Source of the DNA: a virus | Lineage: Duplodnaviria > Heunggongvirae > Uroviricota > Caudoviricetes | IMG/VR virus record: IMGVR_UViG_3300005399_000003 | Length of the DNA: 64,000 nucleotides | Reading direction: 5' to 3' (one strand) | Shown here: in pieces, positions 1,191 through 53,811 of the stretch | Numbering within the stretch: the first letter of the stretch is position 1 | How the letters are laid out: each line of letters starts with the position of its first letter | The notes under the pieces: generated by a model | The model's database searches: none | The model's input: the letters and a program-made list of their open reading frames with translations, nothing else | Told to the model about the DNA's origin: nothing | Program-made: the position numbers and the translations under genes

Positions 1191-1238
1191 GCACAAGTCA
1201 GCTTTGACTTACCACAACGAGAGGGGCATAACAGACCC

Positions 1239-3161
1239 ATGAAATTCACACAGATCACCTTACAAAACTTCGGGCGCATCAAAGAGGCGACCGTGAAGCT
1301 ATCTGATCGGGGACTTGTCCTCATTCAGGGTCAAAACATGGATGGCTCCGCTGCGAACAGCAACGGTGCCGGCAAATCTACACTGGTCGAGGCAATCAGC
1401 TGGGTGCTCTACGGCAAGACCGCAAAGGGTGTCACGGGCGACAGCGTCATCAACCGCGAAGCGGGAAAGAACTGTGCCGTTCATCTGACAATCGAAGATG
1501 GTGACGAGAGCTACACGATTAGCCGCGGGCGCAAGCACAAGGTTCTCAAGTCGAAGCTGCATGTCACGACAGGTGACGGCAAAGTCGATCTGACAAAGGG
1601 CACCGACAAGCTGACACAGGATGTCGTCAACAAGATCATTGGCTGCCCCTATGATGTCTTCGTCGCCGCAGTCTACGCAGGGCAAGAAGCCGTGCCCGAT
1701 CTTCCCGGCATGGGTGACAAACAGCTCAAGCTCCTGATCGAAGAAGCCGCGGGCATCACTGAGCTTGAGGAAGCCTATGTGAAGGCCCGGGCCGACGCGC
1801 AAGACATCGGCGCTGAGTATGAGCGCGCCGCAGGGCGTGTCGAGCGTGCCGATACGGGTATTGAGCATGCCCGCATTCGCATGGAAGACGCCGAGCGCAG
1901 CGCGAAACGCTGGGAGGGTGAGCGTGATGCGCGCCTTATGGACATCGAAACCCAGGCTAAGACCTCGATCGAGGAAGCAAAGCGCCTGAAGGAAGCTTTG
2001 GGCAAAGACAGCCCGCTCAAGGAGCTGAACGAGCAGCTCGACAAGGCGATGGTCAGCAAGGGCAAGCTCGATCAGGAAGCTGAGACGGAAGACGATCACA
2101 AGACGGTGCTCAAAGACGCTGAGCGCGTGGTCACAGGCGTCGAAACCAAGATCGGGATGGTTAAGACGCAGCTCAAGAAGGCGAAGGACTACGAGAAGGA
2201 AGTCGAGGGCCAGATGGGTCAGCCCTGCGAAGCGTGCGGGCGGGACCATGACGAGACATCGCTGGAAAAGACCATCGAATACGCCAAGGGCAAAGTGCAA
2301 GAAGTCGCAAACGAAGCCCGCGCCCTGATCGCTGAGCTAAAGGATGCTCAGAGAAGCGCACAGAGCGCCCGTGAGAGCTTGGAGAAGTATCAAGCGGGGA
2401 TGACTGACCCAACGCACTTGGAAGCCCACATAGGGGCGCTGAGAGCGAAGATCAAAGAGCGCACCGATCAAGAAGCCGAAGTTGTGAGAGCGAAGAAGAC
2501 GGCTCAAGAGGCGCTTGACCTGCTCAAAGCTGAGCGGGCGCGGGAAAACCCCTATCTGCCTGAAATCAAGGATCGCAAGAGCGATCTGAGTGAGGCGGTT
2601 AAGAAGCGCACTGAGGCTGAGAAGGCCCGTAAAGAGATCATGGAGGAGGCGAAGATCGCCAAAGGGGTTGTTGAAGTGTTCAGCCCCAAAGGCGTGCGCG
2701 CCCGCATCCTTGATACCGTCACGCCCTATCTCAACGAGCGCACGGCGCACTATCTCGGCGTTCTCGGCGACGGGCGACTGCAAGCACGTTGGTCAACGAT
2801 CAGTCTGACAGCAAAGGGCGAGGCACGCGAGAAGTTCGCCATTGATGCATCCGATCTCGAAGACGGTGGCAACTTTGCTGACCTCTCGGGCGGGGAGAAG
2901 CGCCGGGTAAGATTGGCATGCGCCCTGGCACTGCAAGACTTGGTCGCAACCCGCGCTGCAAAGGCAATCGACTTGTTTGTCGCCGACGAGATCGACGCGG
3001 CGCTCGATGTCGCAGGGTTGGAGCGCTTGATGACGGTGCTTGAAGAGAAGGGCCGCGAGCGGGGCAGCGTGATCGTGATCAGCCACACGGATCTGAGAGA
3101 TTGGTGTTCCAATACGATCACGGTGCGCAGAGAGAATGGAACATCGAAGGTGATCGAATGA
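1239..3161 (+). CDS. SbcC/Rad50-like SMC-family ATPase (T4 gp46-like)
   Basis: Walker A GAGKST at the N-terminus and a long coiled-coil middle region. The C-terminus carries the signature LSGGEKRRV, Walker B LFVADEIDAALD and an H-loop SHT. Confidence 0.8.
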   Translation: MKFTQITLQNFGRIKEATVKLSDRGLVLIQGQNMDGSAANSNGAGKSTLVEAISWVLYGKTAKGVTGDSVINREAGKNCAVHLTIEDGDESYTISRGRKHKVLKSKLHVTTGDGKVDLTKGTDKLTQDVVNKIIGCPYDVFVAAVYAGQEAVPDLPGMGDKQLKLLIEEAAGITELEEAYVKARADAQDIGAEYERAAGRVERADTGIEHARIRMEDAERSAKRWEGERDARLMDIETQAKTSIEEAKRLKEALGKDSPLKELNEQLDKAMVSKGKLDQEAETEDDHKTVLKDAERVVTGVETKIGMVKTQLKKAKDYEKEVEGQMGQPCEACGRDHDETSLEKTIEYAKGKVQEVANEARALIAELKDAQRSAQSARESLEKYQAGMTDPTHLEAHIGALRAKIKERTDQEAEVVRAKKTAQEALDLLKAERARENPYLPEIKDRKSDLSEAVKKRTEAEKARKEIMEEAKIAKGVVEVFSPKGVRARILDTVTPYLNERTAHYLGVLGDGRLQARWSTISLTAKGEAREKFAIDASDLEDGGNFADLSGGEKRRVRLACALALQDLVATRAAKAIDLFVADEIDAALDVAGLERLMTVLEEKGRERGSVIVISHTDLRDWCSNTITVRRENGTSKVIE

Positions 3162-4238: not shown

Positions 4239-4324
4239 TCTTCTTGCACCATATATAGTAAGTCATTACTGACTGGTGTATAGTTATAGGTCTGGTCAAT
4301 CGTAAATCCCGAAAGAGGAAACCC

Positions 4325-16058: not shown

Positions 16059-16147
16059 CAGGCCCGATCATAAGATTGCCCGTCCAGATATGGGCGGGCA
16101 TCAAGTCATTACTGACAGAGCAATGACGCAAACGAAAGGGAAACCCC

Positions 16148-16555
16148 ATGCCGAAGATTACACAGATCAATCGCCCGATGGCTCAGCAGCTTGCAAAGCG
16201 GATCAAGGAAAAGCTGCAAGAGCTGGACGAAGAGTTCGGCTACGACATCAGCTTTGACATTGACCCTCACTGGCGGTTCAGCTCGTCGAGCCTATCGGTA
16301 GCCGTCAAGGCATCGCTCGACGTGCCGACAGAAGAGACCTCCGAGGGTCGCACCTTCGCACTGCTTGCGCCCCGCTATGACTTACAGCCTGACTTGCTCG
16401 GCAAGACATTCTGGATGGGTAACTATGAGTACCGCATCACAGGCCTCAAGCCATCGCGCCCAAAGTATCCCGTAAGCGCCGAGCGAGTGCGTGACGGACG
16501 CGGCTACAAGTTCACCGTCGATCAGATTAAGATGGGAATGCGCATCGGGGCCTAA
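16148..16555 (+). CDS. hypothetical protein
   Basis: GAAAGGGAAACCCCATG translation-initiation motif. Confidence 0.5.
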   Translation: MPKITQINRPMAQQLAKRIKEKLQELDEEFGYDISFDIDPHWRFSSSSLSVAVKASLDVPTEETSEGRTFALLAPRYDLQPDLLGKTFWMGNYEYRITGLKPSRPKYPVSAERVRDGRGYKFTVDQIKMGMRIGA

Positions 16556-18028: not shown

Positions 18029-18056
18029 GGGGTGCCCACCGGGCGCCCCATTTTCG
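18029..18056 (+). terminator. rho-independent terminator
   Basis: GGGGTGCCC-ACCG-GGCGCCCC followed by ATTTTCG. Confidence 0.55.
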
Positions 18057-21776: not shown

Positions 21777-21849
21777 GCGATACGTCAGCTTTGACTTGCC
21801 TCATTTGCGGGCTGATATTGAGTGCAGATCAGAAAGAAAGGGAAAGCCC

Positions 21850-22209
21850 ATGACACAGGAACGCACGATCAAGGTCAGCATGAACGCAATTATGGCGGAA
21901 GCTGTTTGCGCATATGTGGACGAGCAAATGAGCCATGACCCTGATGAAGCTCGCATGAAGGCCCTGCAAGACGCCGACGACAAGGCTATGGAGGTTCTGC
22001 GCGGGACCAATTTGATGCACAGCGGTACTGTTCTGTACGAGGATGATCGCGTCATCCTCTTTGAGCACCCGATCCACGGGGATGAAGCGCCGATCATGGG
22101 CTACCTCAAAGAAGAGGAGTTCTTCATGGAGAACACGATGTTCTATGAAGTCGATGATCGCCACTGCATCGTGTCCATGCTCGAAGCCCAAGCTGGGGCG
22201 CCTTATTAA
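21850..22209 (+). CDS. hypothetical protein
   Basis: GAAAGGGAAAGCCCATG initiation motif. Confidence 0.5.
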   Translation: MTQERTIKVSMNAIMAEAVCAYVDEQMSHDPDEARMKALQDADDKAMEVLRGTNLMHSGTVLYEDDRVILFEHPIHGDEAPIMGYLKEEEFFMENTMFYEVDDRHCIVSMLEAQAGAPY

Positions 22210-22287
22210 GCAAGGCGACACGTCAGCTTTGACTTACCTTGTTCGTGCCCACATAAAGGGTGCGAACACAATGAAAGGGATTCGCTC

Positions 22288-22719
22288 ATGTCGAGGTTCA
22301 TCTTCTATCGCCACACTGTTCTCGGCGATCATATCGACGCCTATCGCTCGATCATGCGCTTGCAGGCAGACAAGATTGTCCCGTGGTGGACTGTTGCTGA
22401 GTACGCAGCGAATGGCGGCTACTTTAAGGCAGCTCAGATCGAGGCGGGGTCGCTGGAGGAAGCGTGGGATCGCGCTCACACTGACCACATGCCCACGGGG
22501 CGCTACGTCAAGACATTGGATGCCCGCTGCCCGGGCCATTCGTCAGTCACTGACATCTTCGAGGATTGCACCACCGGTGCGCTGTGGATGTGTCTGGACA
22601 CGGGTTGGGCTGAGATGCCTGACGATACCGCCGAGCACTTCCGGGCGCACATCAAGCCCCCGGTGCTGAAAGATCAACCGCTGACAGATTTCATGGTCTC
22701 GCTTGAGGAGTTGCGCTGA
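22288..22719 (+). CDS. hypothetical protein
   Basis: GAAAGGGATTCGCTCATG. Confidence 0.5.
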   Translation: MSRFIFYRHTVLGDHIDAYRSIMRLQADKIVPWWTVAEYAANGGYFKAAQIEAGSLEEAWDRAHTDHMPTGRYVKTLDARCPGHSSVTDIFEDCTTGALWMCLDTGWAEMPDDTAEHFRAHIKPPVLKDQPLTDFMVSLEELR

Positions 22720-23848: not shown

Positions 23849-24167
23849 ACATGCAGAAGCGGCACTCTATGCCGAGATGATGGGCGGCGACCCTGACGAC
23901 GTGACTGCCGAAGACTATATGGCGTATTATGAAAGCCTGAAGCCACCGGCGCCGAACATGATCGCGCTGGATGCGGACATGGCCCTGAGTTCGATCAGGC
24001 AATGGGGTGACGAAGATAGCCCGCCATCTGTCCCGGAGCTGATCGAGAGCCTGTTTCCCAAGCTGACTAAAGAGGAAGCTGAGACGGTCGCAAAGGGGCT
24101 TGAGCTGCTGGCAGCACAGTATGACGACAGCGCCCATGACGAAGACGACGAGGAAGACCCTGAATAG
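23841..24167 (+). CDS. acidic hypothetical protein
   Basis: 8-nt overlap with the upstream gene. The C-terminus is DEDDEEDPE. Confidence 0.45.
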   Translation: MGEHAEAALYAEMMGGDPDDVTAEDYMAYYESLKPPAPNMIALDADMALSSIRQWGDEDSPPSVPELIESLFPKLTKEEAETVAKGLELLAAQYDDSAHDEDDEEDPE

Positions 24168-24175
24168 CCCTCAGA

Positions 24176-24262
24176 GCGCCCCGCTGAGAGCTTTGGCGGG
24201 GCTTTTGCATACACACCCCCATGAAACACAGTGGAAGCGCTCTACGGGGCGCTTTTTCTTTG
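24176..24262 (+). terminator. two tandem rho-independent terminators
   Basis: GCGCCCCGC...GCGGGGCTTTTG, then AGCGC...GGGGCGCTTTTTC. Confidence 0.55.
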
Positions 24263-24324
24263 CAGTAGGCATCAAGTCAGTTTTGACTTACCGCCCCCGA
24301 GGGGTGATAACGGGTGACAGTCAA

Positions 24325-24717
24325 ATGAAGGGTGCCGTGATGTTCGGGAAAACTGCTATGCTTTGCCTTGCTCTGAATGCCTATTTCGAGGCGCGGGGCG
24401 AGGGTGTTGAAGGCATTCATGCCGTAACGCATGTGGTGATCAATCGCATCGACAGCCCGCGCTGGCCCAATGAGGCGTGCGAGGTGGTCTTTCAGCCCTG
24501 GCAGTTCACCTGGACGATGGAGAAGACATACGAGGTCAAAGAGGATGTCTTGGCTGAGGTCTACGAGCATGTGGTGGATGCCGTGCAGCTTCCAGACAGC
24601 ACCCGAGGCGCCACGCACTATCACGCCACATATGTGTCACCTAAATGGGCAGGTATTTACCCCCGCACAGCTTTTGTTGGTGATCATATCTTTTATAAGG
24701 CGCTGTCTGGCATGTGA
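24325..24717 (+). CDS. SleB-family cell-wall hydrolase (putative endolysin)
   Basis: LALNAYFEARGEG...AVTHVVINR is the Hydrolase_2/SleB signature. Confidence 0.75.
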   Translation: MKGAVMFGKTAMLCLALNAYFEARGEGVEGIHAVTHVVINRIDSPRWPNEACEVVFQPWQFTWTMEKTYEVKEDVLAEVYEHVVDAVQLPDSTRGATHYHATYVSPKWAGIYPRTAFVGDHIFYKALSGM

Positions 24718-24794
24718 AGGATATAAAGTCACTATTGATTTACCTGTTATCCCTTAATATAAGGGAATCAAATAAAGACGAGAGAAGGGAATAT

Positions 24795-25094
24795 ATGGAT
24801 TATCAAATGATTGATGGTGAGGTCATGGCCTCGGAGCATCCTAAAACTTGGGAGATGCCTTCGGAGCAAGACCGCAAGTCACTTAAAGTAGGTGATCACG
24901 CTAAGATTGGACTTCGCATCAAAGATGGCCCTGGAGAGCGCTTCTGGCTGAAGGTCACGCAGGTCATTCAGTGCGATGATGGCTCGGGGCGCGTCATGTA
25001 TCAAGGCGCGGTGGACAATGATCTGGTCGTCTTCGACTTCCCGGTTGGTCACATTCTGGACTTCGAGCCGCGGCACGTTCTGACGGTCATCTGA
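24795..25094 (+). CDS. hypothetical protein
   Basis: ORF that follows an AT-rich patch at 24714-24800. Confidence 0.45.
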   Translation: MDYQMIDGEVMASEHPKTWEMPSEQDRKSLKVGDHAKIGLRIKDGPGERFWLKVTQVIQCDDGSGRVMYQGAVDNDLVVFDFPVGHILDFEPRHVLTVI

Positions 25095-25183
25095 TATTTG
25101 CGCATGGTCACAAGTCATTCGTGACTTGCCATAAATGACCCTGCATCTTGGGTCTATCGAAACACGAGAGAAAGGGAGCACTC

Positions 25184-25690
25184 ATGCCCAATTGGTGCGA
25201 GAACAGATGGACAATCGACGCCCAAACCCCTGAGCGGGTGCAGGAGATTGCCGAAGCGTTGCAGGTCGATGGAAAGTTCAGCTTCAACAGCCTGATCCCG
25301 ATGCCCGAGATCCTCAAGAGAACAGCCTCGGGCAGTATCACGATCGACGGCGAGAACGTGCGCAGCTGGATCACGGAGACGGATGCTGACGGCAAGAGGA
25401 TTGATCGTCTTCCCACCGAAACAGAGAAGGCCCAGCTCAAAGAGATTGGCGCAAGCAACTGGTACGAATGGGCCAATGATAATTGGGGCACCAAGTGGGA
25501 TGCCTGCAATGTTGAAATGCACGTCTTCGGCAGCGGCATCAGCCTCAGCTTCGACACAGCATGGGGGCCGCCCGCGCCTGTCGCTCGCGCTCTCGCTGAC
25601 AAGTTCGACCACATCGACTTCCACCCCCGCTGGGGTGGCGTCGAGATGGAGCTGGATGACGAAGGTGGCTTCATCGACCTCGAATACTGA
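25184..25690 (+). CDS. hypothetical protein (N-terminal MPNWCENRW)
   Basis: GAGAGAAAGGGAGCACTCATG leader. Confidence 0.5.
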   Translation: MPNWCENRWTIDAQTPERVQEIAEALQVDGKFSFNSLIPMPEILKRTASGSITIDGENVRSWITETDADGKRIDRLPTETEKAQLKEIGASNWYEWANDNWGTKWDACNVEMHVFGSGISLSFDTAWGPPAPVARALADKFDHIDFHPRWGGVEMELDDEGGFIDLEY

Positions 25691-26280: not shown

Positions 26281-26343
26281 TTAAGCACGCAGTCACCAGT
26301 TATTCATTGGTGACTGCACATCGGAAAGGGAAAGGAGGGCTTT

Positions 26344-26871
26344 ATGCCTAAAACACCATTCAAAATGACCGACAGCGTAAAGGATCTTCTGTCGCGGATT
26401 GATCGGCATCGCGATCAGGTCATTCATCACGAGCAGTGCGTGAAGGATCTGATCAAGCTTTACGACAAGCACATGGCGGAAGCGGCCAAGGAACACATCG
26501 CCCGGACAGGCGAGGCGCCTAATGTTCTGATGACACTGACACAGATCGCCATCATGCGCGGCATTGGCCCGCAAGCGGCGCAAAATCATGCGCGTGAGGC
26601 ATTTGGCGGTACGGTCAAGCGCGGACATCGGGGCCGTGATCTCTTTGGTCGTCAGCAGTATCCACTGCGCCCCATTCATCAGTTCTATCTGAAAAACGCC
26701 AAAGGTCGAGGTCGCCCCACAGGCTCTCTGAGCGACAAAAAGGTCGAGCTTATTCAGGCGCTTTACAGGGGTGGCATGAGCGTCCGAAAGATTGCCAAGC
26801 ATGTCGATGCGTCAGAGGCTTCTGTGATTGCTAATTTGCCAGCATATGAACCCCCAATTGCCGCTGAATGA
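26344..26871 (+). CDS. DNA-binding protein with C-terminal Hin/resolvase-type HTH, no recombinase catalytic domain
   Basis: GRGRPTGSLSDKKVELIQALYRGGMSVRKIAKHV is an HTH_7-like segment. No catalytic-serine motif is present. Confidence 0.5.
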   Translation: MPKTPFKMTDSVKDLLSRIDRHRDQVIHHEQCVKDLIKLYDKHMAEAAKEHIARTGEAPNVLMTLTQIAIMRGIGPQAAQNHAREAFGGTVKRGHRGRDLFGRQQYPLRPIHQFYLKNAKGRGRPTGSLSDKKVELIQALYRGGMSVRKIAKHVDASEASVIANLPAYEPPIAAE

Positions 26872-26949
26872 GGCGACAAGTCAGCTTTGACGTACCACAA
26901 CTGCCCCTGCACATTGTAGGGGCAGACAGCAAAACGAAAGGGAAGACCC

Positions 26950-27294
26950 ATGAGCAAGTTTACCGGACTCACGCTGAACAAGTCTCAGGTCGAGTTCATG
27001 CGTGATGAAGCGATGGCATGGATCGACGTTCAGAAGAGCGATCATCGCTTCGAGGCAGACGCCCTGCGAAATGAGGAGCCCGGCTATCTCTTCGACGTGG
27101 CAAGAATGTTCACGACCCTCGGGGGTATTCGGAGCATTCCCGAAGGTGGGTCGATGCTGATCGACAGCAACAGCGCCTATTCCCTGCTCTGCTACGTCGA
27201 GGACGAAGAGACATTCGAGCAGTACATCGCGGATGGGGAAATCTCCCGCGAGGACATTACAGATTACCGCAATCAACTGGAGGCAGCAGCATGA
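26950..27294 (+). CDS. acidic hypothetical protein
   Basis: GAAAGGGAAGACCCATG leader. Confidence 0.5.
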   Translation: MSKFTGLTLNKSQVEFMRDEAMAWIDVQKSDHRFEADALRNEEPGYLFDVARMFTTLGGIRSIPEGGSMLIDSNSAYSLLCYVEDEETFEQYIADGEISREDITDYRNQLEAAA

Positions 27295-28933: not shown

Positions 28934-29041
28934 ATGATCAGGCATCAACTACGCAACATGGTCATCGTAATCCTGGCCATGATCATCGGCATCACTGTAG
29001 GCATAGCGCTCGTAAAGACACTGCCTGGCACTCTACTCTAG
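28934..29041 (+). CDS. small hydrophobic peptide (35 aa)
   Basis: MIRHQLRNMVIVILAMIIGITVGIALV is a single TM helix. Confidence 0.25.
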   Translation: MIRHQLRNMVIVILAMIIGITVGIALVKTLPGTLL

Positions 29042-29044
29042 CTA

Positions 29045-29390
29045 GAAATCCCCTCACCACAACAGACCCCAAAAATAGCCCCTCAGAAGCCCCAAAACGC
29101 AATCAGCACCCCCAACCCCCGACAGACCCTCCAACGCCCCACAGACCCCCTCACAGCGCAGCGCACGCAACGCCTAACCCCAACAAAGCCCGCGCAACCC
29201 GCAATCAATCCCAACCCCAGAGGAAAACTACCCGCAAGCCCATCAGACCCCGCAGCGCCAAGAACCCTCGGAGCAACGATCAAACCAATCCTGAAACGTA
29301 AGACAAACAGACCTCGAACTTTCGACCCGACAAGAGCACGACCAAGAGCACAGCCACCCTCGGGAACGCCAGTAGGGAAAGGAAAGGGAA
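29045..29390 (+). repeat. C-rich/G-poor low-complexity tract (CCCCAA/ACCC repeats), non-coding
   Basis: About 340 bp with almost no G on the + strand. No ORF with a start codon is present. Confidence 0.6.
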
Positions 29391-29575
29391 AAGCCTATAC
29401 ACACAAGGCTATGATGCTCTCGGATAGGGAAAGGTCAGGGGTGAGACTATAGAGGGATAGAAGGGAGGACATACGGGAAAGGAGACTGATCTGCCTATAG
29501 GGGAAAGGAGGGGTTTTTGCCTATAGACACATGTACGGTAGGGAAAGGAGAGCTTTGTGCCTAGAAACTCTCCCT
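29380..29575 (+). repeat. direct repeats GGGAAAGG...(T)GCCTATAG, 4-5 copies
   Basis: Units at about 29387, 29440, 29500 and 29545. Related units occur at 30700, 31620 and 32300. Confidence 0.55.
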
Positions 29576-29687
29576 ATAAGACGCCGATAAGTGGGCCTGC
29601 GCCTAACCAAACCACCAATCCCAGCCTTGCCACCGCCTGAACTATCCGCGCCACTTCCAAGCCATCGCCAGTCCATCTCGACCATGG

Positions 29688-29750
29688 CCCCACCATGGAC
29701 GTGCCATGGACGTGCCATGGCGTTGGCGTGTTGCCGTGACCATGGCGACA
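29688..29750 (+). promoter_or_regulatory. array of 5 CCATGG palindromes upstream of AGTCA-N4-TGACT element
   Basis: ACCATGGCC, ACCATGGAC, GCCATGGAC, GCCATGGCG and ACCATGGCG within about 65 bp. Confidence 0.5.
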
Positions 29751-29818
29751 AGTCATCGTTGACTGTCCAGCTCTGCGGGGTGATTGTGGGTTTGTTCAAG
29801 CATGAAAGGGAAAGCTCA

Positions 29819-30199
29819 ATGGCAAAGAACACCCCCAAGACGCCCATCACATTCAGTGTGGCAGACATCAGAGCGGTCGTAGACACAGGGATGGCGTATC
29901 GCACAGCGAAGGGCGACCCTGAATTGGCACTTGCCCGCATCAATGGTCTTCAGCGTGAGATCAATGAGATCGTTGGTACATACGAGAACAACGATGGCAG
30001 CGTGAAGCGCAATCATGGACTGTCGCGGGATCAGTTGTTGGAGCGCATTGCGCGTAGCTGCTTTCTGTTGGCAGAGCGCGTCTACATCATGCAGCACTCC
30101 CAAGGTAAGGGCTGTGACATGATTGATCTGCGGCGGGTCGTGAATGACAACTATGACAAGGCAATCAAGCGTGTGGGCTTGGCCCCACAACCCGCTTGA
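29819..30199 (+). CDS. hypothetical protein
   Basis: CATGAAAGGGAAAGCTCAATG leader. Confidence 0.5.
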   Translation: MAKNTPKTPITFSVADIRAVVDTGMAYRTAKGDPELALARINGLQREINEIVGTYENNDGSVKRNHGLSRDQLLERIARSCFLLAERVYIMQHSQGKGCDMIDLRRVVNDNYDKAIKRVGLAPQPA

Positions 30200-30257
30200 T
30201 CTGCCATAACTGCACCCCCACAAAGGGGGTGCAACAACATGAAAGGGATAACAGCTT

Positions 30258-30620
30258 ATGAACGAAGCAGACAAGATCATCCGCAACGCCCACGCAGCAA
30301 GCATTCAGTCCGCAATCGACGACAGCAATGCGCGGGTTATACTGCACAAACAAGAGAGTGCGCCTTTGCATGACAAGCTCCGGGCGCTGTTCACCAACCC
30401 TGATCACGCCGTTGAATATGACGCTGTGTGCAGCGCCTTTGGGCATGAGCCCACGCTGTCTGAGCTGGGTTTCCATCTGTCTTCTATGACGCTGACGCCT
30501 GAAGAAGCCATGCGCGTTGATACGCTGATCGCGGGAATGGCGAGCGATGTCTTCCGTTTCAACTGCTCTGAGGGCGGGGATCAGCCTGAAGACGTGATCG
30601 ACGCCCTATACGGGTTCTGA
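30258..30620 (+). CDS. hypothetical protein
   Basis: Preceded by the hairpin GCACCCCC-ACAAA-GGGGGTGC, then CAAC and GAAAGGGA. Confidence 0.5.
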   Translation: MNEADKIIRNAHAASIQSAIDDSNARVILHKQESAPLHDKLRALFTNPDHAVEYDAVCSAFGHEPTLSELGFHLSSMTLTPEEAMRVDTLIAGMASDVFRFNCSEGGDQPEDVIDALYGF

Positions 30621-30661
30621 CCTAGAACACTGAGAGGGGTTCCTGCTCCCCTCTCAGAACT

Positions 30662-30700
30662 CCCGACCCGAGGTACTTCCCCTTTCAGCCTCGGGTCGGT
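30662..30700 (+). terminator. hairpin terminator-like element
   Basis: CCGACCCGAGG...CCTCGGGTCGG, an 11-bp stem. Confidence 0.4.
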
Positions 30701-30939
30701 CGAGAAAGGCGAGGGAAAGGCGGGGTTTGGGCCTAGATATAGCCATGGAGCTGCCATGGTAATAATCTTGCGCAGTTTTGGCTTGGAGCTTAATCTCACC
30801 CCGGAGGCGATTGATCTCGCCTTCAATGAAATCAAAGGGTTGCTAGGCGAAAGATTATTGCGCGTTGGCAGCTGTTTTGGGGTGATCTGCCGCTATTGAG
30901 GGGTGATAAGGGCTGTAGAGCAACAGAAAGGGATTACCC

Positions 30940-31185
30940 ATGGCATACAAGTTCAAAAGCGAGTGTCTCAAGCTTCAGGCAGAAAGCGTCATCATGGCAG
31001 CTTTTGAGGGCGACAACGAACACGCCATCATCGACACGGGCAGCAACGGGTCGCCCTCCTATCACGTTGTCACCTTCAATCACGGGCGCGAGGGAATGTG
31101 CCTCAACGCAGAAGAGCACAGCAACATGCCTGATGCGATCAAAGCCCTCTCGGGGTTCATGGTGACTGAATACGCGGGAGTTTAA
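30940..31185 (+). CDS. hypothetical protein
   Basis: GAAAGGGATTACCCATGG leader. Confidence 0.5.
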   Translation: MAYKFKSECLKLQAESVIMAAFEGDNEHAIIDTGSNGSPSYHVVTFNHGREGMCLNAEEHSNMPDAIKALSGFMVTEYAGV

Positions 31186-31258
31186 GGTGCCCTTCACCCT
31201 TTGACCCACCTAGTCTGCACCCCCACAACGGGGGTGTAGCAACTGAAAGGGATTACCC

Positions 31259-31606
31259 ATGCAATATGCAGTTATCACAGACGCACAGATCGACTTCCTT
31301 AAAGCGAACCCCGTGCCCAACGTCGATCAGTTTCACACACCCTACGCCTACGTCATCGAAAATCAGCGCGACGATTGCACCTTGAGCAAAGAGCAAGTCA
31401 TCGAACTGACGCAGATGATGCACCTAATGCCCCATGTCGCCCTTGTTGACTACAGTGAGAAACAGGGGCGCGAAACCCGCTATGCTGCCTATTACGACGG
31501 GTCGCTGTCGTTCCTAGAGATCGGGGAAGAAGTCGATGGGCGCTGCACTGTGACTGCCTTGAGCGACAGGGATCACGCCTATGTGCTCGGGTATTTCGGG
31601 CGATAA
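31259..31606 (+). CDS. hypothetical protein
   Basis: Hairpin GCACCCCC-ACAAC-GGGGGTG, then GAAAGGGATTACCCATG. Confidence 0.5.
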   Translation: MQYAVITDAQIDFLKANPVPNVDQFHTPYAYVIENQRDDCTLSKEQVIELTQMMHLMPHVALVDYSEKQGRETRYAAYYDGSLSFLEIGEEVDGRCTVTALSDRDHAYVLGYFGR

Positions 31607-31612
31607 ACCCCG

Positions 31613-31645
31613 AAAGCCCGCCCAAGAGAAAGGCGGGCTTTTTGC
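31613..31645 (+). terminator. rho-independent terminator
   Basis: AAAGCCCGCC-loop-GGCGGGCTTTTT. Confidence 0.6.
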
Positions 31646-31654
31646 CTAGAAGGG

Positions 31655-31795
31655 GTCTTCCATGGCACGGCCATGGCAAAGCTACCATGGCGTTTGCCTA
31701 AACGCGGCCATGGCAGGTCCATGGAGATCAGGCCATGGTCTTCTCCTAAACGCGGCCATGGCGGGTCCATGGCGTTTCGGCCATGGCGCCCCGGG
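31655..31795 (+). promoter_or_regulatory. array of 9 CCATGG palindromes incl. ~40-bp tandem repeat
   Basis: Nine G/TCCATGGC sites within about 135 bp. CTAAACGCGGCCATGGC(A/G)GGTCCATGG is duplicated. Confidence 0.55.
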
Positions 31796-31856
31796 ACTGT
31801 TGCGCTGCCTAACCCTGCGCGGGACATTGGGGCATCAACAGAGAAAGGGATTACCC

Positions 31857-32189
31857 ATGAAGATCGAACTGGAAGTATGTGACTGCTCGGGCGAAGCGAT
31901 TGTTTGCAAGGTGACGCCCACAGACGCGCAGATCGAGAAGATCGAGAAGGCGATAAGCGAGAACCCCTCAAAGATGTTTGAATGGCAAGGCGAGCTGCCC
32001 AATGTCGCTGAGACGACTGTGGAGGGCGTTGACTGCATGTCATTCATGGACGAGGGCATTCTGATCATGTCGATCGCTGGACCCTCGTATATGGACTGTC
32101 TGACGATCTGGGAGGACAAAGAGATGCAAGAGCGCGCAATCGCTGAGACATGGATGCTCTTTGTCCCGCATTTGAAGATCTTCCTCTAA
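31857..32189 (+). CDS. hypothetical protein
   Basis: GAAAGGGATTACCCATG leader. The portion of the tracked ORF upstream of this ATG runs through the CCATGG repeats and is probably non-coding. Confidence 0.5.
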   Translation: MKIELEVCDCSGEAIVCKVTPTDAQIEKIEKAISENPSKMFEWQGELPNVAETTVEGVDCMSFMDEGILIMSIAGPSYMDCLTIWEDKEMQERAIAETWMLFVPHLKIFL

Positions 32190-32335
32190 AGGGAAAGGCG
32201 AGCCCCGCGTCCATATTAGGGAAAGGCTAGCCCCGTGGCGGGCTCTAGGAAAGGCTGCGGGAAAGGCTAGCCCCGTGGCGAGGCTTAGGAAAGGCTCGGA
32301 GAAAGGCGAGCGCTTTGCCTAGGAACGGCGCGGAA
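32190..32335 (+). repeat. direct repeats GGGAAAGGCTAGCCCCGTGGCG(G/A)GC(T)CTAGG x2 plus GGAAAGGC variants
   Basis: Two near-identical units of about 30 bp, each containing an internal hairpin. Confidence 0.55.
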
Positions 32336-32423
32336 AAGGAGAGGAAAGGCAGCAAAAAATGCCGCGGCAAGGCGCGGCAAAGCCCCTGCGGGGCTTGGAG
32401 GAGGCTAGGCGCCCCCTTGATCG

Positions 32424-32593: not shown

Positions 32594-32803
32594 TTACGCC
32601 CCCAATTCGCGATACACCCATGCCCGTTGAACGGGCGGGATTGCGTCGAGATATGCAAGCGCGTCAGCGTCATCTTCATGCAAGCTCAGCATTGTCTCAA
32701 TCCCTGACAGGGGCAGGGGCAAGACGTGATCAAACACGCGCACATCATAGCTCTCGGGGCGTTTGCTGCGCGGGGCGCGGGGCAGGGTAACTACGTTCGA
32801 CAT
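32594..32803 (-). CDS. hypothetical small protein
   Basis: On the minus strand it is preceded by GAAAGGGATTTACCCAATG, the same leader used by the + strand cassette genes. Confidence 0.45.
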   Translation of the reverse strand: MSNVVTLPRAPRSKRPESYDVRVFDHVLPLPLSGIETMLSLHEDDADALAYLDAIPPVQRAWVYRELGA

Positions 32804-32854
32804 TGGGTAAATCCCTTTCAAGTGTTGCGGGCTGTTTCGCCCGTATCTCTTTCT

Positions 32855-33000
32855 AAGTCATCTTTGACTTGATTCGCAATATCCCTTTCCCATTAAATCG
32901 CCCCCTTTTCCCCTTTCCCCATATAAAGGGATTAAATCGCCCCCTTTTCATAAAAGCGCATTTTAGGGGTTGCGAATCAAGTCACCCCTGACTTATACAT
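32855..33000. promoter_or_regulatory. composite regulatory region: two AGTCA-N4-TGACT elements embedded in a 15-bp inverted repeat flanking 2x direct repeat ATTAAATCGCCCCCTTTTC
   Basis: The TTGACTTGATTCGCAA...TTGCGAATCAAGTCA arms enclose the direct repeats. Confidence 0.5.
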
Positions 33001-33058
33001 ATTTCACGGGCAACGAAGCGCCCCGCAAGAAAGCGCTTCACATGAAAGGGAAAGACCC

Positions 33059-33742
33059 ATGACAAACGTTTCTATCAAAGCAATGCGCGAAAATCTGACA
33101 GCTAACTTTGCAGCGCGTGAAGAGTTTGAAGCGAAAAAGGGCAAAGCTGCTAGCATCATGCCCCAGCTTGATCGTCATTTCGCGTATGACAATAAAGCGC
33201 AAGATTCCAAATGGGGTAACGATGTATTCAAAGCCCTGCGCGATGCGGGTGTCTCTAACTTTGACTTCATCACGCACAAGCTGCGCGAGTCTGATATGTT
33301 CAATATCAAGGGGCTTGCGAAAGTAGGGGCGCACATTGAAAGCATCGCGCGGGGCAAGCTCACCCAATTTGACAAGACGAATCAGAAGTATTGCGGGGCG
33401 ATTGTGCATGAGCTGATTCAGAATCGTGACAAGTTCGAGCGGGGCGAAATGCAAATCAAAACAGGGCAATTTGTACCCATGTTCGCCCGCGCAGCACGCA
33501 ACGACTCGCTTGCGACATATGATTTCGCAACATCGCTAATCAGCGTTCAACCCAGCACTGCTAGCACGCAAGCAAGCTCTAGCATGCGCGCCCTAGATGC
33601 AATGGGGGTAGTGAACGCATACGAAACAGGGACAGGGAAAGACAAGACATTGCATGTAAACTATGTGAAATGGGATCACCCCCTTGTCGCTTTGTTCGCT
33701 GAGCTTTACGGGCTAGACGTTCCCAAAACTGAGCAAGCTTAA
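33059..33742 (+). CDS. hypothetical protein (lower-GC, likely horizontally acquired moron)
   Basis: Local GC is about 48%, against roughly 60% for the window. The gene carries the same GAAAGGGAAAGACCCATG leader. Confidence 0.55.
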   Translation: MTNVSIKAMRENLTANFAAREEFEAKKGKAASIMPQLDRHFAYDNKAQDSKWGNDVFKALRDAGVSNFDFITHKLRESDMFNIKGLAKVGAHIESIARGKLTQFDKTNQKYCGAIVHELIQNRDKFERGEMQIKTGQFVPMFARAARNDSLATYDFATSLISVQPSTASTQASSSMRALDAMGVVNAYETGTGKDKTLHVNYVKWDHPLVALFAELYGLDVPKTEQA

Positions 33743-40286: not shown

Positions 40287-40373
40287 GACATTACCTTGCT
40301 ACAAAGGGGTTTATCTTATACATTATAACTCAGAAATGACTTACCTTATACCCCTCCTTCAGGCAAGGACAGC

Positions 40374-44119: not shown

Positions 44120-44490
44120 GCCCGAGGATGCCTGTCAACCGAAAAGCGAAGGACAGGGGTGCGACATATTGTCACCACATCGCTAAGAATCATTCCCCCT
44201 GTCCCTCTACTCGCTTCACTCGTAGAGTGTACTAGTAAGTAAATATAAGTCAATTAGTATTTAGCGGATGTGGTGACACTATGTCGCACCCAAAGGACTT
44301 GACATAAAATCAGCCACTTAGGCGATTCTGGCTCCTCGGGAAGATAAGTAAGCGCTGACTTGTATGTTATCGCCTAATCGCTTATACTTAGGACACCACC
44401 CGGTATCCGGTTTTCCCTGTTCACGGTCCTCGGGTGTCTCTCGTCAGGCCCGCTCTTTCGGGAGCGGGCCACCCTAATTCAGCAGGAACC
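44120..44490. promoter_or_regulatory. AT-rich non-coding region with 24-bp inverted repeats; candidate pac/cos or late-control region
   Basis: GGTGCGACATATTGTCACCACATC at 44156 pairs with GATGTGGTGACACTATGTCGCACC at 44267. Further inverted repeats and a GGCCCGCTC-TTTCGG-GAGCGGGCC hairpin at 44446-44472. Confidence 0.5.
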
Positions 44491-48096: not shown

Positions 48097-49046
48097 ACAT
48101 GAAAAACCGCCTTACCCAACCGACTGACCCTTACGATACACCTGCGTGGATGGCGTTCTACGCAGCGAACCCCGGCTTCCGCCGCTCTGTGGGCGCTGAG
48201 GGCGTCAATGACGACGATCCAGCCCCGGGCGCTGACGATGACCCCCAAGACCCGCCCAAGGGCGACGACAAGACGCCCCAAGACCCTCCCAAGGGCGACG
48301 ACGACCCGAAAGACCCGCCCAAGGGCGACGACAAAGACAAGAAGCCCTCGGACGAAGAGGCGCGTTTGCTGCAAGACCTGATGAAGCACAAGAAGGCCGC
48401 GCGTGAAGCGCAGGCCAAGCTGAAGGACTATGACGGCGTCGATGTCGAAGAATACAAGCGGCTCAAGCAGGCGTCGGCTGACGCGGCTCAGGCTGAGCTT
48501 GAGGCTAAGGGCCAGTTTGACGAAGTGAAGCGTCAGATGCGCGAGGCGCATGATCAAGAGATCACGACCATTCGCGCGGAGTCGGAAGAGAAAGACAAGA
48601 CCATCGCCGAGCTGAAGGCGCAGATCGAAGAGCTGACCGTCGGCTCCAGCTTCGGCTCGTCGAAGTTCCTCAAGGAAGAGACCCTGCTGCCGCCCTCGAA
48701 GGCGCGTCGTCTCTATGGTGAGCACTTCGAGATCGAAGACGGCAAGGTCGTGGCCTATGACAAGCCCAAGGGCGCTGCCAACCGCTCGCCGCTGGTTGAC
48801 GGTCGTGGCGACCCGCTGCCTTTCGAGGATGCGATTTCGAAGATCTTCAAGGCTGATCCCGACAGCAAGGAGATGCTGCGCAGCGCCCTGCGCCCCGGCT
48901 CCGACAGCGATCCGTCGAATGCCAAGTCCGACCCGGCCAAGGATCAAAAGCCGATGTCGCGGCAGGAGAAGATCGCCAGTGGCCTCTCCAGCCTCTTCGA
49001 GGGCGGCAATCAAGAGCCGTTCAGCGAGATGTTCAATACGAAGTGA
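48093..49046 (+). CDS. scaffolding protein (putative)
   Basis: PKGDD repeats and a coiled-coil K/E-rich region, directly upstream of the capsid gene. Confidence 0.5.
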   Translation: MNMKNRLTQPTDPYDTPAWMAFYAANPGFRRSVGAEGVNDDDPAPGADDDPQDPPKGDDKTPQDPPKGDDDPKDPPKGDDKDKKPSDEEARLLQDLMKHKKAAREAQAKLKDYDGVDVEEYKRLKQASADAAQAELEAKGQFDEVKRQMREAHDQEITTIRAESEEKDKTIAELKAQIEELTVGSSFGSSKFLKEETLLPPSKARRLYGEHFEIEDGKVVAYDKPKGAANRSPLVDGRGDPLPFEDAISKIFKADPDSKEMLRSALRPGSDSDPSNAKSDPAKDQKPMSRQEKIASGLSSLFEGGNQEPFSEMFNTK

Positions 49047-50143: not shown

Positions 50144-50221
50144 TCGTGCCAATAAGTCACGAATGACTTACAATAGGGCAGGCTCTTCGGGGCCTGCCCT
50201 TTTTCACATAGAGGAACAGAT

Positions 50222-53720: not shown

Positions 53721-53811
53721 TCCTGCCTTAGCCCTATTGGTAAGTCAATACTGACTGTGGTATACTTGCGCCAGTTGTGCCCGTTCACCGACTTACTGAA
53801 AGGATCATTCG

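What the first reader, a model, noticed from the sequence alone, without database searches (positions are those of the whole stretch)
30205..31262. Stereotyped 5' leader of small early genes: hairpin - CAAC - GAAAGGGA - (A/T)nCCCATG
At least 14 genes start in the context GAAAGGGA(A/T)(A/T)NNCCCATG (21850, 25184, 26344, 26950, 29819, 30258, 30940, 31259, 31857, 33059, 16148, 22288, 4325, and the minus-strand gene at 32803). Several are preceded by an 8-bp-stem hairpin such as GCACCCCC-ACAAA-GGGGGTGC (30210, 31212, 26895) and the tetranucleotide CAAC. The conserved CCC immediately 5' of ATG is unusual. The whole leader may be a translational operator for an RNA-binding regulator, or a 5' stabilising stem-loop.
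Basis: seen in the sequence. Interest (0 to 1): 0.55.

Follow-up and report, generated by a model that had tools for sequence, protein, structure and literature searches.

The report
Repeated promoter-hairpin-ribosome-site cassettes in a phage
An uncultured phage related to SSU5-type phage-plasmids puts nearly the same ~65-base "start-up cassette" (promoter, optional GC hairpin, ribosome-binding site GAAAGGGA, often CCC before ATG) in front of a dozen small genes of unknown function; this layout is already known from T4-like phages and cluster K mycobacteriophages, and most of it is DNA-level promoter, not an mRNA leader.

Summary
The repeat is real. GAAAGGGA occurs 18 times (2.35 expected). 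Twelve copies lie 3-9 nt upstream of an ATG (0.18 expected), all between 16.1 and 33.1 kb. CCC at -3..-1 occurs at 11 of 90 starts (P about 5e-6). The pattern as literally written matches only once, because the spacer is usually 6 nt. CCC, the hairpin and CAAC are each present in only a subset.

Aligning on an upstream TTGACT shows 12 sigma-70-type promoters: TTGACT, 17 nt, nAYAnn (A at position 2 in 12/12), then usually GGG (9 of 12). The distance from -35 to ATG is 57-63 nt. The GC hairpin has its loop on the -10 hexamer, so it is not in RNA made from its own promoter. It occurs only where the previous gene ends within 26 nt of the -35. Its imperfections are all G.U on the sense strand. It therefore most likely acts on read-through transcripts, as an attenuator or 3' protector.

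A related contig lacks one ORF plus one cassette, with the crossover inside the cassette core. This is the PeSL architecture of T4-type phages, with a start motif (GGG-N4/5-CCC-ATG) like the cluster K mycobacteriophage SAS.

A translational operator at the GGG:CCC mini-hairpin is not excluded.

Verdict: new variant of a known kind, moderate interest.

The parts
30196..30260 (+). Cassette before gene 30258-30620: -35 TTGATC 30196-30201, -10 CACAAA 30219-30224, hairpin 30211-30233 (loop on the -10), CAACAAC, SD GAAAGGGA 30241-30248, ATG 30258. No CCC.
30882..30942 (+). Cassette before gene 30940-31185: -35 GTGATC, 17-nt spacer, -10 GATAAG then GGC, CAAC, GAAAGGGATTACCCATG. No embedded hairpin; strong separate hairpins lie upstream at 30630-30705.
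31201..31261 (+). Cassette before gene 31259-31606: -35 TTGACC, -10 CACAAC 31224-31229, hairpin 31211-31245 (core 31215-31239), CAAC, GAAAGGGATTACCCATG.
31800..31859 (+). Cassette before gene 31857-32189: -35 TTGCGC, 17-nt spacer, -10 GACATT then GGGG, CAAC, GAAAGGGATTACCCATG. Preceded by a canonical terminator with T-run at about 31612-31650.
29751..29821 (+). Cassette before gene 29819-30199: palindrome AGTCATCGTTGACT, -10 GATTGT then GGG, GAAAGGGAAAGCTCAATG. No embedded hairpin.
26879..26952 (+). Cassette before gene 26950-27294: palindrome AGTCAGCTTTGACG, -10 CACATT 26910-26915, hairpin 26901-26925, GAAAGGGAAGACCCATG. The ortholog in L093 has a perfect 11-bp stem and AAAGCCC instead of AAGACCC.
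25113..25186 (+). Cassette before gene 25184-25690: palindrome AGTCATTCGTGACT, -10 CATCTT, weak hairpin 25137-25154, GAAAGGGAGCACTCATG. The gene is absent from relative L093, where the same promoter is joined to the next gene through a different SD.
24727..24797 (+). Cassette before gene 24795-25094: AGTCACTATTGATT, -10 TATAAG, weak hairpin 24750-24766, SD GAGAAGGGA, ATG 24795.
24275..24342 (+). Cassette: AGTCAGTTTTGACT, -10 GATAAC then GGG, SD GAAGGG, probable start ATG 24340 (57 nt from the -35). Preceded by a canonical terminator at 24178-24202.
22221..22290 (+). Cassette before gene 22288-22719: CGTCAGCTTTGACT, -10 CATAAA, hairpin 22240-22268 (two G.U pairs), GAAAGGGATTCGCTCATG.
21783..21852 (+). 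Cassette before gene 21850-22209: CGTCAGCTTTGACT, -10 GATATT, no hairpin, GAAAGGGAAAGCCCATG. Together with cassette 22221 it flanks an ORF that is missing from L093.
1196..1241 (+). Variant cassette: AGTCAGCTTTGACT, 17-nt spacer, CATAAC, then only 6 nt (agaccc) before ATG 1239 of the SbcC-like ATPase. Candidate leaderless mRNA, still with CCCATG.
16104..16150 (+). Variant leader: palindrome AGTCATTACTGACA, then GAAAGGGAAACCCCATG. No -10 at the 17-nt spacing.
26291..26346 (+). Variant leader of the HTH-protein gene 26344-26871: long palindrome/hairpin AGTCACCAGTTATTCATTGGTGACT, then GGAAAGGGAAAGGAGGGCTTTATG.
32980..33061 (+). Variant: palindrome AGTCACCCCTGACT followed at once by a TATACA-like -10, hairpin GAAGCGC...GCGCTTC probably in the 5' UTR, GAAAGGGAAAGACCCATG.
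32801..32869 (-). Minus-strand variant: palindrome at 32856-32869, small hairpin GGGC-gaaaca-GCCC, CAAC, GAAAGGGATTTACCCAATG (ATG 32803).

Best explanation
The 'leader' is the downstream third of a composite expression cassette of about 60-75 bp. It is repeated at least 11 times on the + strand between 21.7 and 31.9 kb, with variants elsewhere.

Each cassette has, in order:
1. A -35 box TTGACT, usually the right half of the palindrome AGTCA-N4-TGACT.
2. A 17-nt spacer.
3. A -10 box nAYAnn, usually followed by GGG (a discriminator).
4. A short A/C-rich start of the transcript, which is where the 'CAAC' sits.
5. The Shine-Dalgarno sequence GAAAGGG(A). It can form 6 Watson-Crick pairs plus one G.U pair with the 3'-terminal CCUUUC(U) of a CCUCCUUUCU-type 16S rRNA tail.
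6. A 6-7 nt spacer that usually ends in CCC or CTC.
7. ATG.

Host RNA polymerase would start about 7-9 nt after the -10, giving 5' UTRs of roughly 20-30 nt.

The GC hairpin straddles the -10 box, so it exists as RNA only in transcripts that come from upstream. There it most likely attenuates or terminates read-through, or protects the 3' end of the upstream message. Where there is more intergenic room, that job is done by a separate upstream hairpin or terminator.

Because the cassettes resemble one another, they also serve as sites of homologous recombination that add, delete or swap the small ORFs they precede.

Shown: the motif statistics, the alignment, hairpin stability and position, the G.U asymmetry and the chimeric cassette in a relative.
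Inferred: promoter activity, transcription start points, terminator or stabiliser activity, and the host 16S tail.
Unexplained: why GGGA and CCC are kept. They can form a 3-bp stem next to AUG.

Promoter alignment:
- Eight sites aligned purely on the palindrome show A at hexamer position 2 in 8/8 and T at position 3 in 7/8, exactly 17 nt after TTGACT.
- Four more sites fit the same frame.
- GGG follows the hexamer in 9 of 12.
- The -35 to ATG distance is 57-63 nt in 10 of 12 as first called, and in 11 of 12 with the revised 24340 start, which gives 57.

Hairpins:
- Four hairpins score z -4.3 to -5.8, two score -2.5 and -1.8, and six cassettes have none.
- In all six hairpin-bearing cassettes the loop overlaps the -10 hexamer.
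- An embedded hairpin is present in 6 of the 7 cassettes whose -35 box lies at most 26 nt after the previous stop codon.
- All 5 cassettes with gaps of 49-828 nt instead have a separate upstream hairpin of -19 to -25 kcal/mol, three of them with T-tails, and no embedded hairpin.
- Stem imperfections are 5 G.U pairs and no A.C. Three of the four strong hairpins are 4-5 kcal/mol more stable on the sense strand.
- Stems 30211-30233 and 26901-26925 share a register and differ by three double (compensatory) changes, read from the sequences.

Shine-Dalgarno sequence:
- GAAAG occurs in 24 of 90 upstream windows (1.8 expected), alongside GGAG and AGGAG. That fits a CCUCCUUUCU tail.
- Tails of this type are documented in PMC6288834.
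- Duplex energies are -8.7 to -9.5 kcal/mol.

Recombination:
- Relative L093 lacks ORF 21850-22209 and one cassette.
- Its single cassette has the left flank of cassette w21783 and the right part of cassette w22221, so the crossover lies within CGTCAGCTTTGACTT.
- The body of gene 26344 is replaced between a conserved leader and the next cassette.

Other:
- The genes served are ORFans with no Pfam or PHROG family.
Against: - There are no transcription data, and the host is unknown and uncultured.
- Only 1 of the 12 promoters passes an E. coli-consensus scan, because T at the last -10 position is present in only 5 of 12. I rely on recalled knowledge that alphaproteobacterial housekeeping promoters tolerate this (Caulobacter GCTANAWC).
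- The embedded hairpins have no U-tract, so classical intrinsic termination is doubtful.
- Canonical terminators with T-runs exist elsewhere in the same genome.
- One short-gap cassette (21783) has no hairpin.
- Only one informative relative exists, so the recombination evidence rests on one clean case.
- The model does not explain the conserved non-complementary GGGA and CCC.
- Part of the stereotypy is plain paralogy: 30940, 31259 and 31857 share 17 identical bases.
Confidence: 0.6

Rival explanations
1. The SD-to-ATG segment is a start-associated translational operator. The stem GGG-N4/5-CCC (or CUC) abutting AUG is recognised by a phage- or host-encoded factor, or it tunes ribosome access. 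That would co-regulate this gene set after transcription, as the first reader proposed and as was suggested for cluster K SAS.
For: - GGGA is not the best complement of the anti-SD, yet it is invariant in 13 leaders.
- CCC is enriched about 5-fold at -3..-1. It also occurs in leaders that are not paralogous cassettes (4325, 10375, 34819 minus, 1239).
- CCC is replaced by CUC, which keeps G.U pairing, in 3 leaders.
- The mini-hairpin is predicted with P 0.71-0.99 and about -4 kcal/mol in 8 leaders.
- The L093 ortholog of 26950 changes AAGACCC to AAAGCCC but keeps CCC.
- All these starts are ATG.
- The SAS precedent is described in PMC3203893.
Against: - No candidate regulator has been found: no RNA-binding domain among the neighbours.
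- A 3-bp stem is weak, and any CCC can pair with the GG of any SD, so the pairing is not diagnostic.
- Two to five GAAAGGGA leaders lack it.
- Leaderless candidate 1239 has CCCATG without an SD.
- The extra L093 cassette has GCC, not CCC.
- There are too few relatives for a covariation test.
Confidence: 0.17
2. Nothing beyond ancestry. The leaders look alike because promoter-RBS segments were recently duplicated or homogenised by gene conversion, and each part is just an ordinary promoter and SD with no selected extra features.
For: - Neighbouring cassettes share long identical runs. D11 is 40 nt at 80% identity and D16 is 29 nt at 90%.
- GAAAGGGATTACCCATG occurs three times within 1 kb.
- Cassette-to-cassette recombination is documented.
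Against: - Cassettes differ greatly in their spacer and stem sequences, yet keep spacing, pairing (compensatory changes) and the GGG/CCC positions.
- CCC recurs in non-homologous leaders.
- Hairpin presence tracks intergenic length.
Confidence: 0.12
3. The inverted repeats around the -10 act at the DNA level. Either they are operators for a repressor that occludes the -10, or they are extruded hairpins that help or hinder promoter opening, in the manner of N4-type hairpin promoters.
For: - The position is fixed relative to the -35/-10 rather than to the SD.
- Many promoters in this genome also carry a clear protein-type palindrome.
Against: - The stem sequences differ between sites (GCACCCCC, CTGCCCCTGCA, TTCGTGCCC, GACCC, TCCCTTA), so no single sequence-specific protein fits.
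- The imperfections are G.U on the sense strand only.
- Half of the promoters lack the repeat.
- Loops are 3-8 nt, not the 3-nt loop on a 5-7 bp stem of N4 promoters (recalled). The tape-measure gene and the SSU5-like portal suggest a siphovirus-type genome, where an N4-type virion RNA polymerase is not expected.
Confidence: 0.06
4. The hairpin is a 5'-terminal stabilising stem-loop of the downstream mRNA, with transcription starting just upstream of it.
For: - A hairpin followed by 4-10 nt of A/C-rich linker and then the SD is seen in most leaders.
- In variants 33059, 32803 (minus), 26344 and 16148 a hairpin lies downstream of any plausible -10.
Against: - For the six class I hairpins, the only conserved -10-like element lies in the loop.
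- The alternative hexamer 4 nt after TGACT is poorly conserved. It would also start transcription inside the 5' arm (reasoned).
- Hairpins are absent in half of the cassettes.
Confidence: 0.05

Closest known systems
PeSLs (promoter-early stem-loop cassettes) of T4-type phages RB49/phi1 and other T4-like myoviruses (PMC2839356; PMC4122927)
   Same: - A sigma-70-type promoter.
- A stable G/C-tract stem-loop lying between the -35 and -10 or overlapping the -10.
- SD and ATG at the 3' end.
- About 60-100 bp long, repeated before small ORFans in a variable genome region.
- Recombination between copies deletes or inserts the flanked ORF.
   Different: - The phage lineage is unrelated: a siphovirus-type genome with an SSU5-like portal, about 57% GC.
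- There is no AT-rich UP region. Instead the left half of a protein-type palindrome sits there.
- The -10 is weak by E. coli rules.
- The hairpin is optional and tied to intergenic length.
- The SD and pre-ATG bases are far more stereotyped.
- Promoter and terminator activity have not been measured here.
Start-associated sequences (SAS) and extended SAS of cluster K mycobacteriophages (PMC3203893)
   Same: - An asymmetric motif in the RBS position, with outer GGG...CCC symmetry and conservation beyond 16S pairing.
- Restricted to non-structural genes.
- One orientation, with a strong ATG preference.
- About half are accompanied by an upstream inverted repeat.
- Function unknown.
   Different: - The sequence differs: GGGATAGGAGCCC lies 3-7 bp before the start there, whereas GAAAGGGA-N3/4-CCC abuts ATG here.
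- In SAS the SD lies between GGG and CCC. Here GGG is part of the SD.
- ESAS repeats have a conserved consensus and were judged DNA sites. Here the stems vary with compensatory changes.
- The host phylum is different.
Phage P1 late promoters (Lpa-dependent: 9-bp palindromic -22 box AAGTGACTT, 4 nt, -10)
   Same: This comparison concerns the upstream palindrome only.
- At 4261, 53743, 40328, 44347 and 32980 the palindrome ends 3-4 nt before a TATAnT-like hexamer, which is the P1 geometry.
- The P1 box shares GTGACTT with the right half-site.
- Both are phage-plasmid lineages.
   Different: - The palindrome here is 14-20 bp (AAGTCA-N4-TGACTT), not 9 bp.
- No Lpa homolog was found by tblastn in the window or in relatives.
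- In the small-gene cassettes the palindrome sits over the -35, not at -22.
T4 RegA/RegB and RNA-phage coat-protein operators (translational control at stereotyped initiation regions)
   Same: - Many early genes share a short motif, or a small hairpin, at the SD or start codon that a phage protein could read.
   Different: - No regulator was identified.
- The motif is unrelated in sequence.
- This is purely an analogy.

Membership tests
PeSL-type composite promoter/stem-loop cassette | Sigma-70-like -35 and -10 boxes at canonical spacing | tested here: met
   12 sites have TTGACT-like, a 17-nt spacer and nAYAnn, with A at position 2 in 12/12. Only 1 of 12 passes the strict E. coli scan. Activity was not measured.
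PeSL-type composite promoter/stem-loop cassette | Stable G/C-tract stem-loop between -35 and -10 or overlapping -10 | tested here: inconclusive
   Met in 4 cassettes strongly and 2 weakly, with the loop on the -10 in all six. Absent in the other 6, which mostly have a separate upstream hairpin.
PeSL-type composite promoter/stem-loop cassette | SD and start codon of the downstream gene at the 3' end | tested here: met
PeSL-type composite promoter/stem-loop cassette | Associated with small ORFans; recombination between copies creates indels between related genomes | tested here: met
   The genes have no Pfam or PHROG family. The chimeric cassette in L093 and the loss of ORF 21850-22209 give one clean case.
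PeSL-type composite promoter/stem-loop cassette | [quoted passage not shown] | tested here: not met
   The upstream sequence is GCGACAAGTCA, the left half of the palindrome, and is not AT-rich.
PeSL-type composite promoter/stem-loop cassette | Stem-loop terminates or attenuates transcription | not testable with these tools
   There is no U-tract after the stems. The sense-strand G.U bias suggests an RNA role.
Cluster K SAS/ESAS | The 13-bp motif GGGATAGGAGCCC (up to 2 deviations) 3-7 bp before the start | tested here: not met
   The motif here is GAAAGGGA-N3/4-CCC directly abutting ATG. It has the same outer GGG/CCC symmetry but a different sequence and register.
Cluster K SAS/ESAS | Confined to non-structural genes, one orientation, ATG starts | tested here: met
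   All copies lie in 16-33 kb, all are oriented with their gene, and all starts are ATG.
Cluster K SAS/ESAS | Motif absent from the host genome | not testable with these tools
   The host is unknown. The portal family is spread over alpha-, beta- and gammaproteobacteria.
Intrinsic (Rho-independent) terminator | GC-rich hairpin followed by a U-tract | tested here: not met
   The tails are aacaacat, agcaactg, acagcaaa and cacaatga. The scan finds no terminator at these sites, while it does find canonical ones at 18029, 24178 and elsewhere.
RegA-type translational repression system | A phage-encoded RNA-binding repressor gene | tested here: inconclusive
   No such Pfam family is on record for the 44 neighbouring genes or in my scans. 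Most of these proteins are ORFans, so absence is weak evidence.
P1-type late promoter (for the palindrome) | Lpa homolog encoded by the phage | tested here: not met
   tblastn of P1 Lpa against the window and 9 related loci gave no hit with E below 1.
Rfam RNA families | Match to any curated covariance model | tested here: not met
   0 matches at gathering thresholds over the whole window.

The most novel reading that the evidence does not exclude
Two layers of control are written into one cassette.

(a) The palindrome AAGTCA-N4-TGACTT is conserved at syntenic intergenic sites across related phage-plasmid-like contigs (portal 43-51% identical) from alpha-, beta- and gammaproteobacteria. It could be the site of a conserved phage factor. 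That factor would shut off the small-gene promoters, where the palindrome covers the -35. It would switch on the structural-gene promoters, where the palindrome sits at about -22 next to a -10.

(b) The GGG-N4/5-CCC stem abutting AUG could be a shared translational operator, the proteobacterial counterpart of the unexplained mycobacteriophage SAS.
Probability: 0.15. Interest if true: 0.65.

Novelty: new variant of a known kind. Interest (0 to 1): 0.4.

Why it matters
- It extends mobile promoter/stem-loop/RBS cassettes, which organise and shuffle small ORFan genes, from T4-like myoviruses to an unrelated GC-rich phage-plasmid lineage. That suggests a general solution for expressing and exchanging accessory genes.
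- It gives a second, independent example of a start-associated GGG...CCC motif whose function has been open since 2011.
- It provides better gene starts. Examples are 24340 rather than 24136, 31857 rather than 31662, and a leaderless candidate at 1239.
- It provides a promoter model for annotating these uncultured phages.

Tried and rejected
- Rfam at gathering thresholds: no family. tRNA/tmRNA: none.
- Near-identical phages in INPHARED: none.
- Exact scan of viral contigs for GAAAGGGATTACCCATG: 4 unrelated chance hits.
- Scan for AAGTCAGCTTTGACTTACC: two contigs carry the palindrome. L085 is a structural-region relative. L086 is unrelated in protein but has the same TTGACT-N17-TATCAA-GGGGG layout.
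- Protein-anchored searches for early-region relatives in viral, genome and metagenome collections: nothing usable.
- Only one diverged relative (L093, 12.5 kb) exists in the protein index. An RNA covariance model was therefore not built, because there are too few independent sequences.
- Classical intrinsic terminator: rejected, no U-tract.
- N4-type hairpin promoter: rejected on loop size and genome type.
- Hairpin as the operator of a single DNA-binding protein: rejected because the stems differ in sequence.
- P1 Lpa homology: not found.
- CRP/FNR-type site (5-N4-5 geometry): considered for the palindrome. The centre is near -36.5, not -41.5, and the motif travels with the phage family across host classes.
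- CsrA-type GGA sites and sponge RNA: considered for the GGGAAAGG arrays. There is no support beyond motif resemblance.
- Host identification through the portal gene failed. The closest genomic relatives are at most 51% identical and span three proteobacterial classes.
Full report
WHAT THE WINDOW IS. The window is phage DNA with about 57% GC.
- It has no close relative in INPHARED, no tRNA and no Rfam family.
- Identical genes occur on a 94.7-kb metagenome scaffold.
- The portal protein is 45-48% identical to those of SSU5-type phage-plasmids and large Rhizobium phages. It is 43-51% identical to portals on contigs that are mostly about 90-130 kb, in alpha-, beta- and gammaproteobacterial genomes.
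- Genes run on the + strand from 1 to 33.7 kb (many small ORFans, plus an SbcC-like ATPase, a class II RNR and RtcB). They run on the - strand from 34.0 to 40.3 kb, and on the + strand again for the structural genes.

THE OBSERVATION.
- GAAAGGGA occurs 18 times against 2.35 expected.
- GAAAGGGA-N3-9-ATG occurs 12 times against 0.18 expected, always at a predicted gene start and always between 16.1 and 33.1 kb.
- CCC at -3..-1 is the commonest pre-start triplet: 11 of 90 starts against 2.2% of all ATGs, P about 5e-6. Among the 13 exact GAAAGGGA leaders, however, it abuts ATG in only 7. Three have CTC and two have neither.
- The three named hairpins and a fourth at 22240 are very stable (z -4.3 to -5.8). 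Two more are weak, and six cassettes have none.
- CAAC is literal in five leaders. Elsewhere the stretch is only A/C-rich.

The intergenic regions carry a palindrome, AGTCA-N4-TGACT.
- It occurs 14 times exactly against 0 expected, and 32 times with at most one mismatch against 1.55 expected.
- In the small-gene region the spacer usually ends in T, which makes TTGACT.
- Eight sites aligned on the palindrome alone show a hexamer exactly 17 nt downstream, with A at position 2 in 8/8 and T at position 3 in 7/8.
- Four further sites that lack the left half-site (30196, 30882, 31201, 31800) fit the same frame, giving 12/12 A.
- GGG follows the hexamer in 9 of 12. From established knowledge, a GGG discriminator contacts sigma region 1.2.
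- The -35 to ATG distance is 57-63 nt.
- This is a sigma-70-type promoter. It scores poorly on E. coli rules because the last -10 base is T in only 5 of 12. From memory, alphaproteobacterial housekeeping promoters (Caulobacter TTGACGS-N10-14-GCTANAWC) tolerate this.

THE HAIRPIN. In all six hairpin-bearing cassettes the loop overlaps the -10 hexamer. RNA started at that promoter therefore contains only the 3' arm. Three further results bear on where the hairpin acts.
- Placement. An embedded hairpin occurs in 6 of the 7 cassettes whose -35 lies at most 26 nt after the previous stop codon. The 5 cassettes with 49-828 nt of room have no embedded hairpin. Each of those has a separate upstream hairpin of -19 to -25 kcal/mol, three with T-tails.
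- Strand asymmetry. All stem imperfections are G.U on the sense strand (5 G.U, no A.C). Three of the four strong hairpins fold 4-5 kcal/mol better as sense than as antisense.
- Compensatory change. Stems 30211-30233 and 26901-26925 are in the same register and differ by three double, pair-preserving changes. The L093 ortholog of 26901-26925 turns a G.U into G-C.

Together these results point to a sense-strand RNA structure that belongs functionally to the end of the upstream transcript (attenuator, terminator or 3' protector) and is overlaid on the next promoter to save space. It is not a classical terminator, because there is no U-tract.

THE SD AND THE CCC.
- GAAAG is in 24 of 90 upstream windows (1.8 expected), alongside GGAG, AGGAG and GGAGG. 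That fits a host 16S tail of the CCUCCUUUCU type, which is documented in many bacteria (PMC6288834).
- GAAAGGG can form six Watson-Crick pairs and one G.U pair with that tail, at -8.7 to -9.5 kcal/mol. The 6-7 nt spacing is what such a 3'-shifted SD needs.
- The invariant GGGA is not the optimal complement, which would be GGAG. CCC cannot pair with rRNA at all.
- GGG and CCC (or CUC) can form a 3-bp stem closing a 4-5 nt loop right before AUG. It is predicted with P 0.71-0.99 and about -4 kcal/mol in eight leaders.
- CCC also occurs in non-paralogous leaders (4325, 10375, 34819 minus) and before the leaderless candidate at 1239.
- I cannot explain this feature. It parallels the GGG-N7-CCC symmetry of the cluster K SAS, whose function is also unknown (PMC3203893).

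RECOMBINATION. The only diverged relative is L093, with about 82-97% nucleotide identity over the aligned blocks.
- It lacks ORF 21850-22209 and one cassette.
- Its single cassette has the left flank of cassette w21783 and the right part of cassette w22221, so the crossover lies in CGTCAGCTTTGACTT.
- ORF 25184-25690 is also absent, with breakpoints at the two SDs.
- The body of gene 26344 is replaced between a conserved leader and the next cassette.
- L093 has an extra block that ends in another GAAAGGGA leader.

COMPARISON WITH KNOWN SYSTEMS.
- The architecture matches the PeSLs of T4-type phages almost point for point. It has a sigma-70 promoter and a G/C-tract stem-loop overlapping the -10. 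SD and ATG sit at the 3' end, the cassettes precede ORFans, and recombination between copies occurs (PMC2839356).
- It differs in lineage, in lacking an AT-rich UP region, in the optional hairpin and in the extreme stereotypy of the SD and pre-ATG bases.
- It is not a member of the SAS family by sequence, but it resembles it in logic.
- No RegA-like protein was found.

VERDICT. The finding is a real, repeated regulatory cassette. Most of what was read as an mRNA leader is promoter DNA plus an RNA hairpin that serves the upstream transcript. The SD is explained by the host anti-SD. The GGGA...CCC part remains an open, SAS-like question. Confidence in the cassette model is 0.6. Novelty: new variant of a known kind. 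Interest: 0.4.

Noticed in passing
Window-wide, e.g. 4261, 6782, 12708, 36131, 40328, 44347, 46396, 49133, 50155, 53743; relatives L096, L098, L099, L106, L112, L118, L124: The palindrome (T)AAGTCA-N4-TGACTT(A) occurs 6-12 times per 21 kb in distant portal relatives (43-51% identical) from alpha-, beta- and gammaproteobacterial genomes. Several copies sit at matching locus positions, for example just upstream of the portal gene. That implies a conserved phage-encoded binding factor. SSU5 itself has TAAGT-N4/N8-ACTTA variants instead.
   Followed up: partly
4261-4290, 53743-53770, 40328-40355, 44347-44375, 32980-33005: In these sites the palindrome ends 3-4 nt before a TATAnT-like hexamer. This is the geometry of P1 late promoters (-22 box AAGTGACTT, 4 nt, -10), and the P1 box shares GTGACTT with the right half-site. 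No Lpa homolog was found by tblastn.
   Followed up: partly
50155-50215 (downstream of the capsid-like gene 49241-50143 and upstream of gene 50222-50788), and the corresponding site in L096, L098, L099, L112, L118, L124: A palindrome plus an ATAGGG-type hexamer is followed at once by a terminator-like GC hairpin with a T-run. The arrangement is conserved in all relatives examined. Possible antitermination or a 5' structure of a late transcript.
   Followed up: no
29374-29570, 30702-30738, 32190-32362 (+); 32882-32949 (-): About 17 copies of GGAAAGG are clustered in 3.6 kb, as units TAGGGAAAGG-N12-GCCTAKA. The units resemble the leader plus first codons of gene 26344 (GGGAAAGGAGGGCTTTATGCCTAAAAC against GGGAAAGGAGAGCTTTGTGCCTAGAAAC). 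They may be iterons or centromere-like sites of a phage-plasmid, decayed cassettes, or binding sites of the HTH protein gp26344.
   Followed up: partly
29681-29747, 30742-30763, 31660-31790: Arrays of CCATGG spaced 11 bp apart (CCATGGACGTG x2.5, and a 48-bp unit x2.4) lie just upstream of three cassettes. The helical-repeat spacing suggests a DNA-binding protein.
   Followed up: no
29040-29370: A 331-nt non-coding tract with 43% C, 34% A, 16% G and 7% T on the + strand. This composition is typical of a Rho-utilisation site and lies after the operon that ends near 28930.
   Followed up: no
1196-1241: TTGACT, 17 nt, CATAAC, then only 6 nt before ATG 1239 of the SbcC-like ATPase, whose N-terminus MKFTQITLQNFG is typical of the family. 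The mRNA is probably leaderless. The longer ORF start at 1179 is probably wrong.
   Followed up: partly
26344-26871 and L093:9344-9922: The gene has a C-terminal helix-turn-helix. The L093 allele reaches the Pfam threshold for sigma-70 region 4 (26.2 bits) and is non-homologous in its middle part to the window allele. It is a candidate for the factor that reads the palindrome or the GGGAAAGG units.
   Followed up: partly
7668, 11609, 16076: Three exact copies of TTGCCCGTCCA begin GC hairpins (for example TTGCCCGTCCAGATATGGGCGGGCA) placed just upstream of palindromes. This is another recurrent hairpin-then-palindrome arrangement in the 1-16 kb region.
   Followed up: no
24136-24717 and 31662-32189: The deposited gene call for 24136-24717 and my own ORF-based call 31662-32189 both run through a terminator and a promoter cassette. 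The cassette model puts the starts at 24340 (or 24325) and 31857; the deposited annotation already places the latter at 31857.
   Followed up: partly
48234-48334: A 30-33 nt tandem repeat (about 3 copies, GACCCCCAAGACCCGCCCAAGGGCGACGACAA) lies inside the ORF 48093-49046, which follows the portal gene.
   Followed up: no
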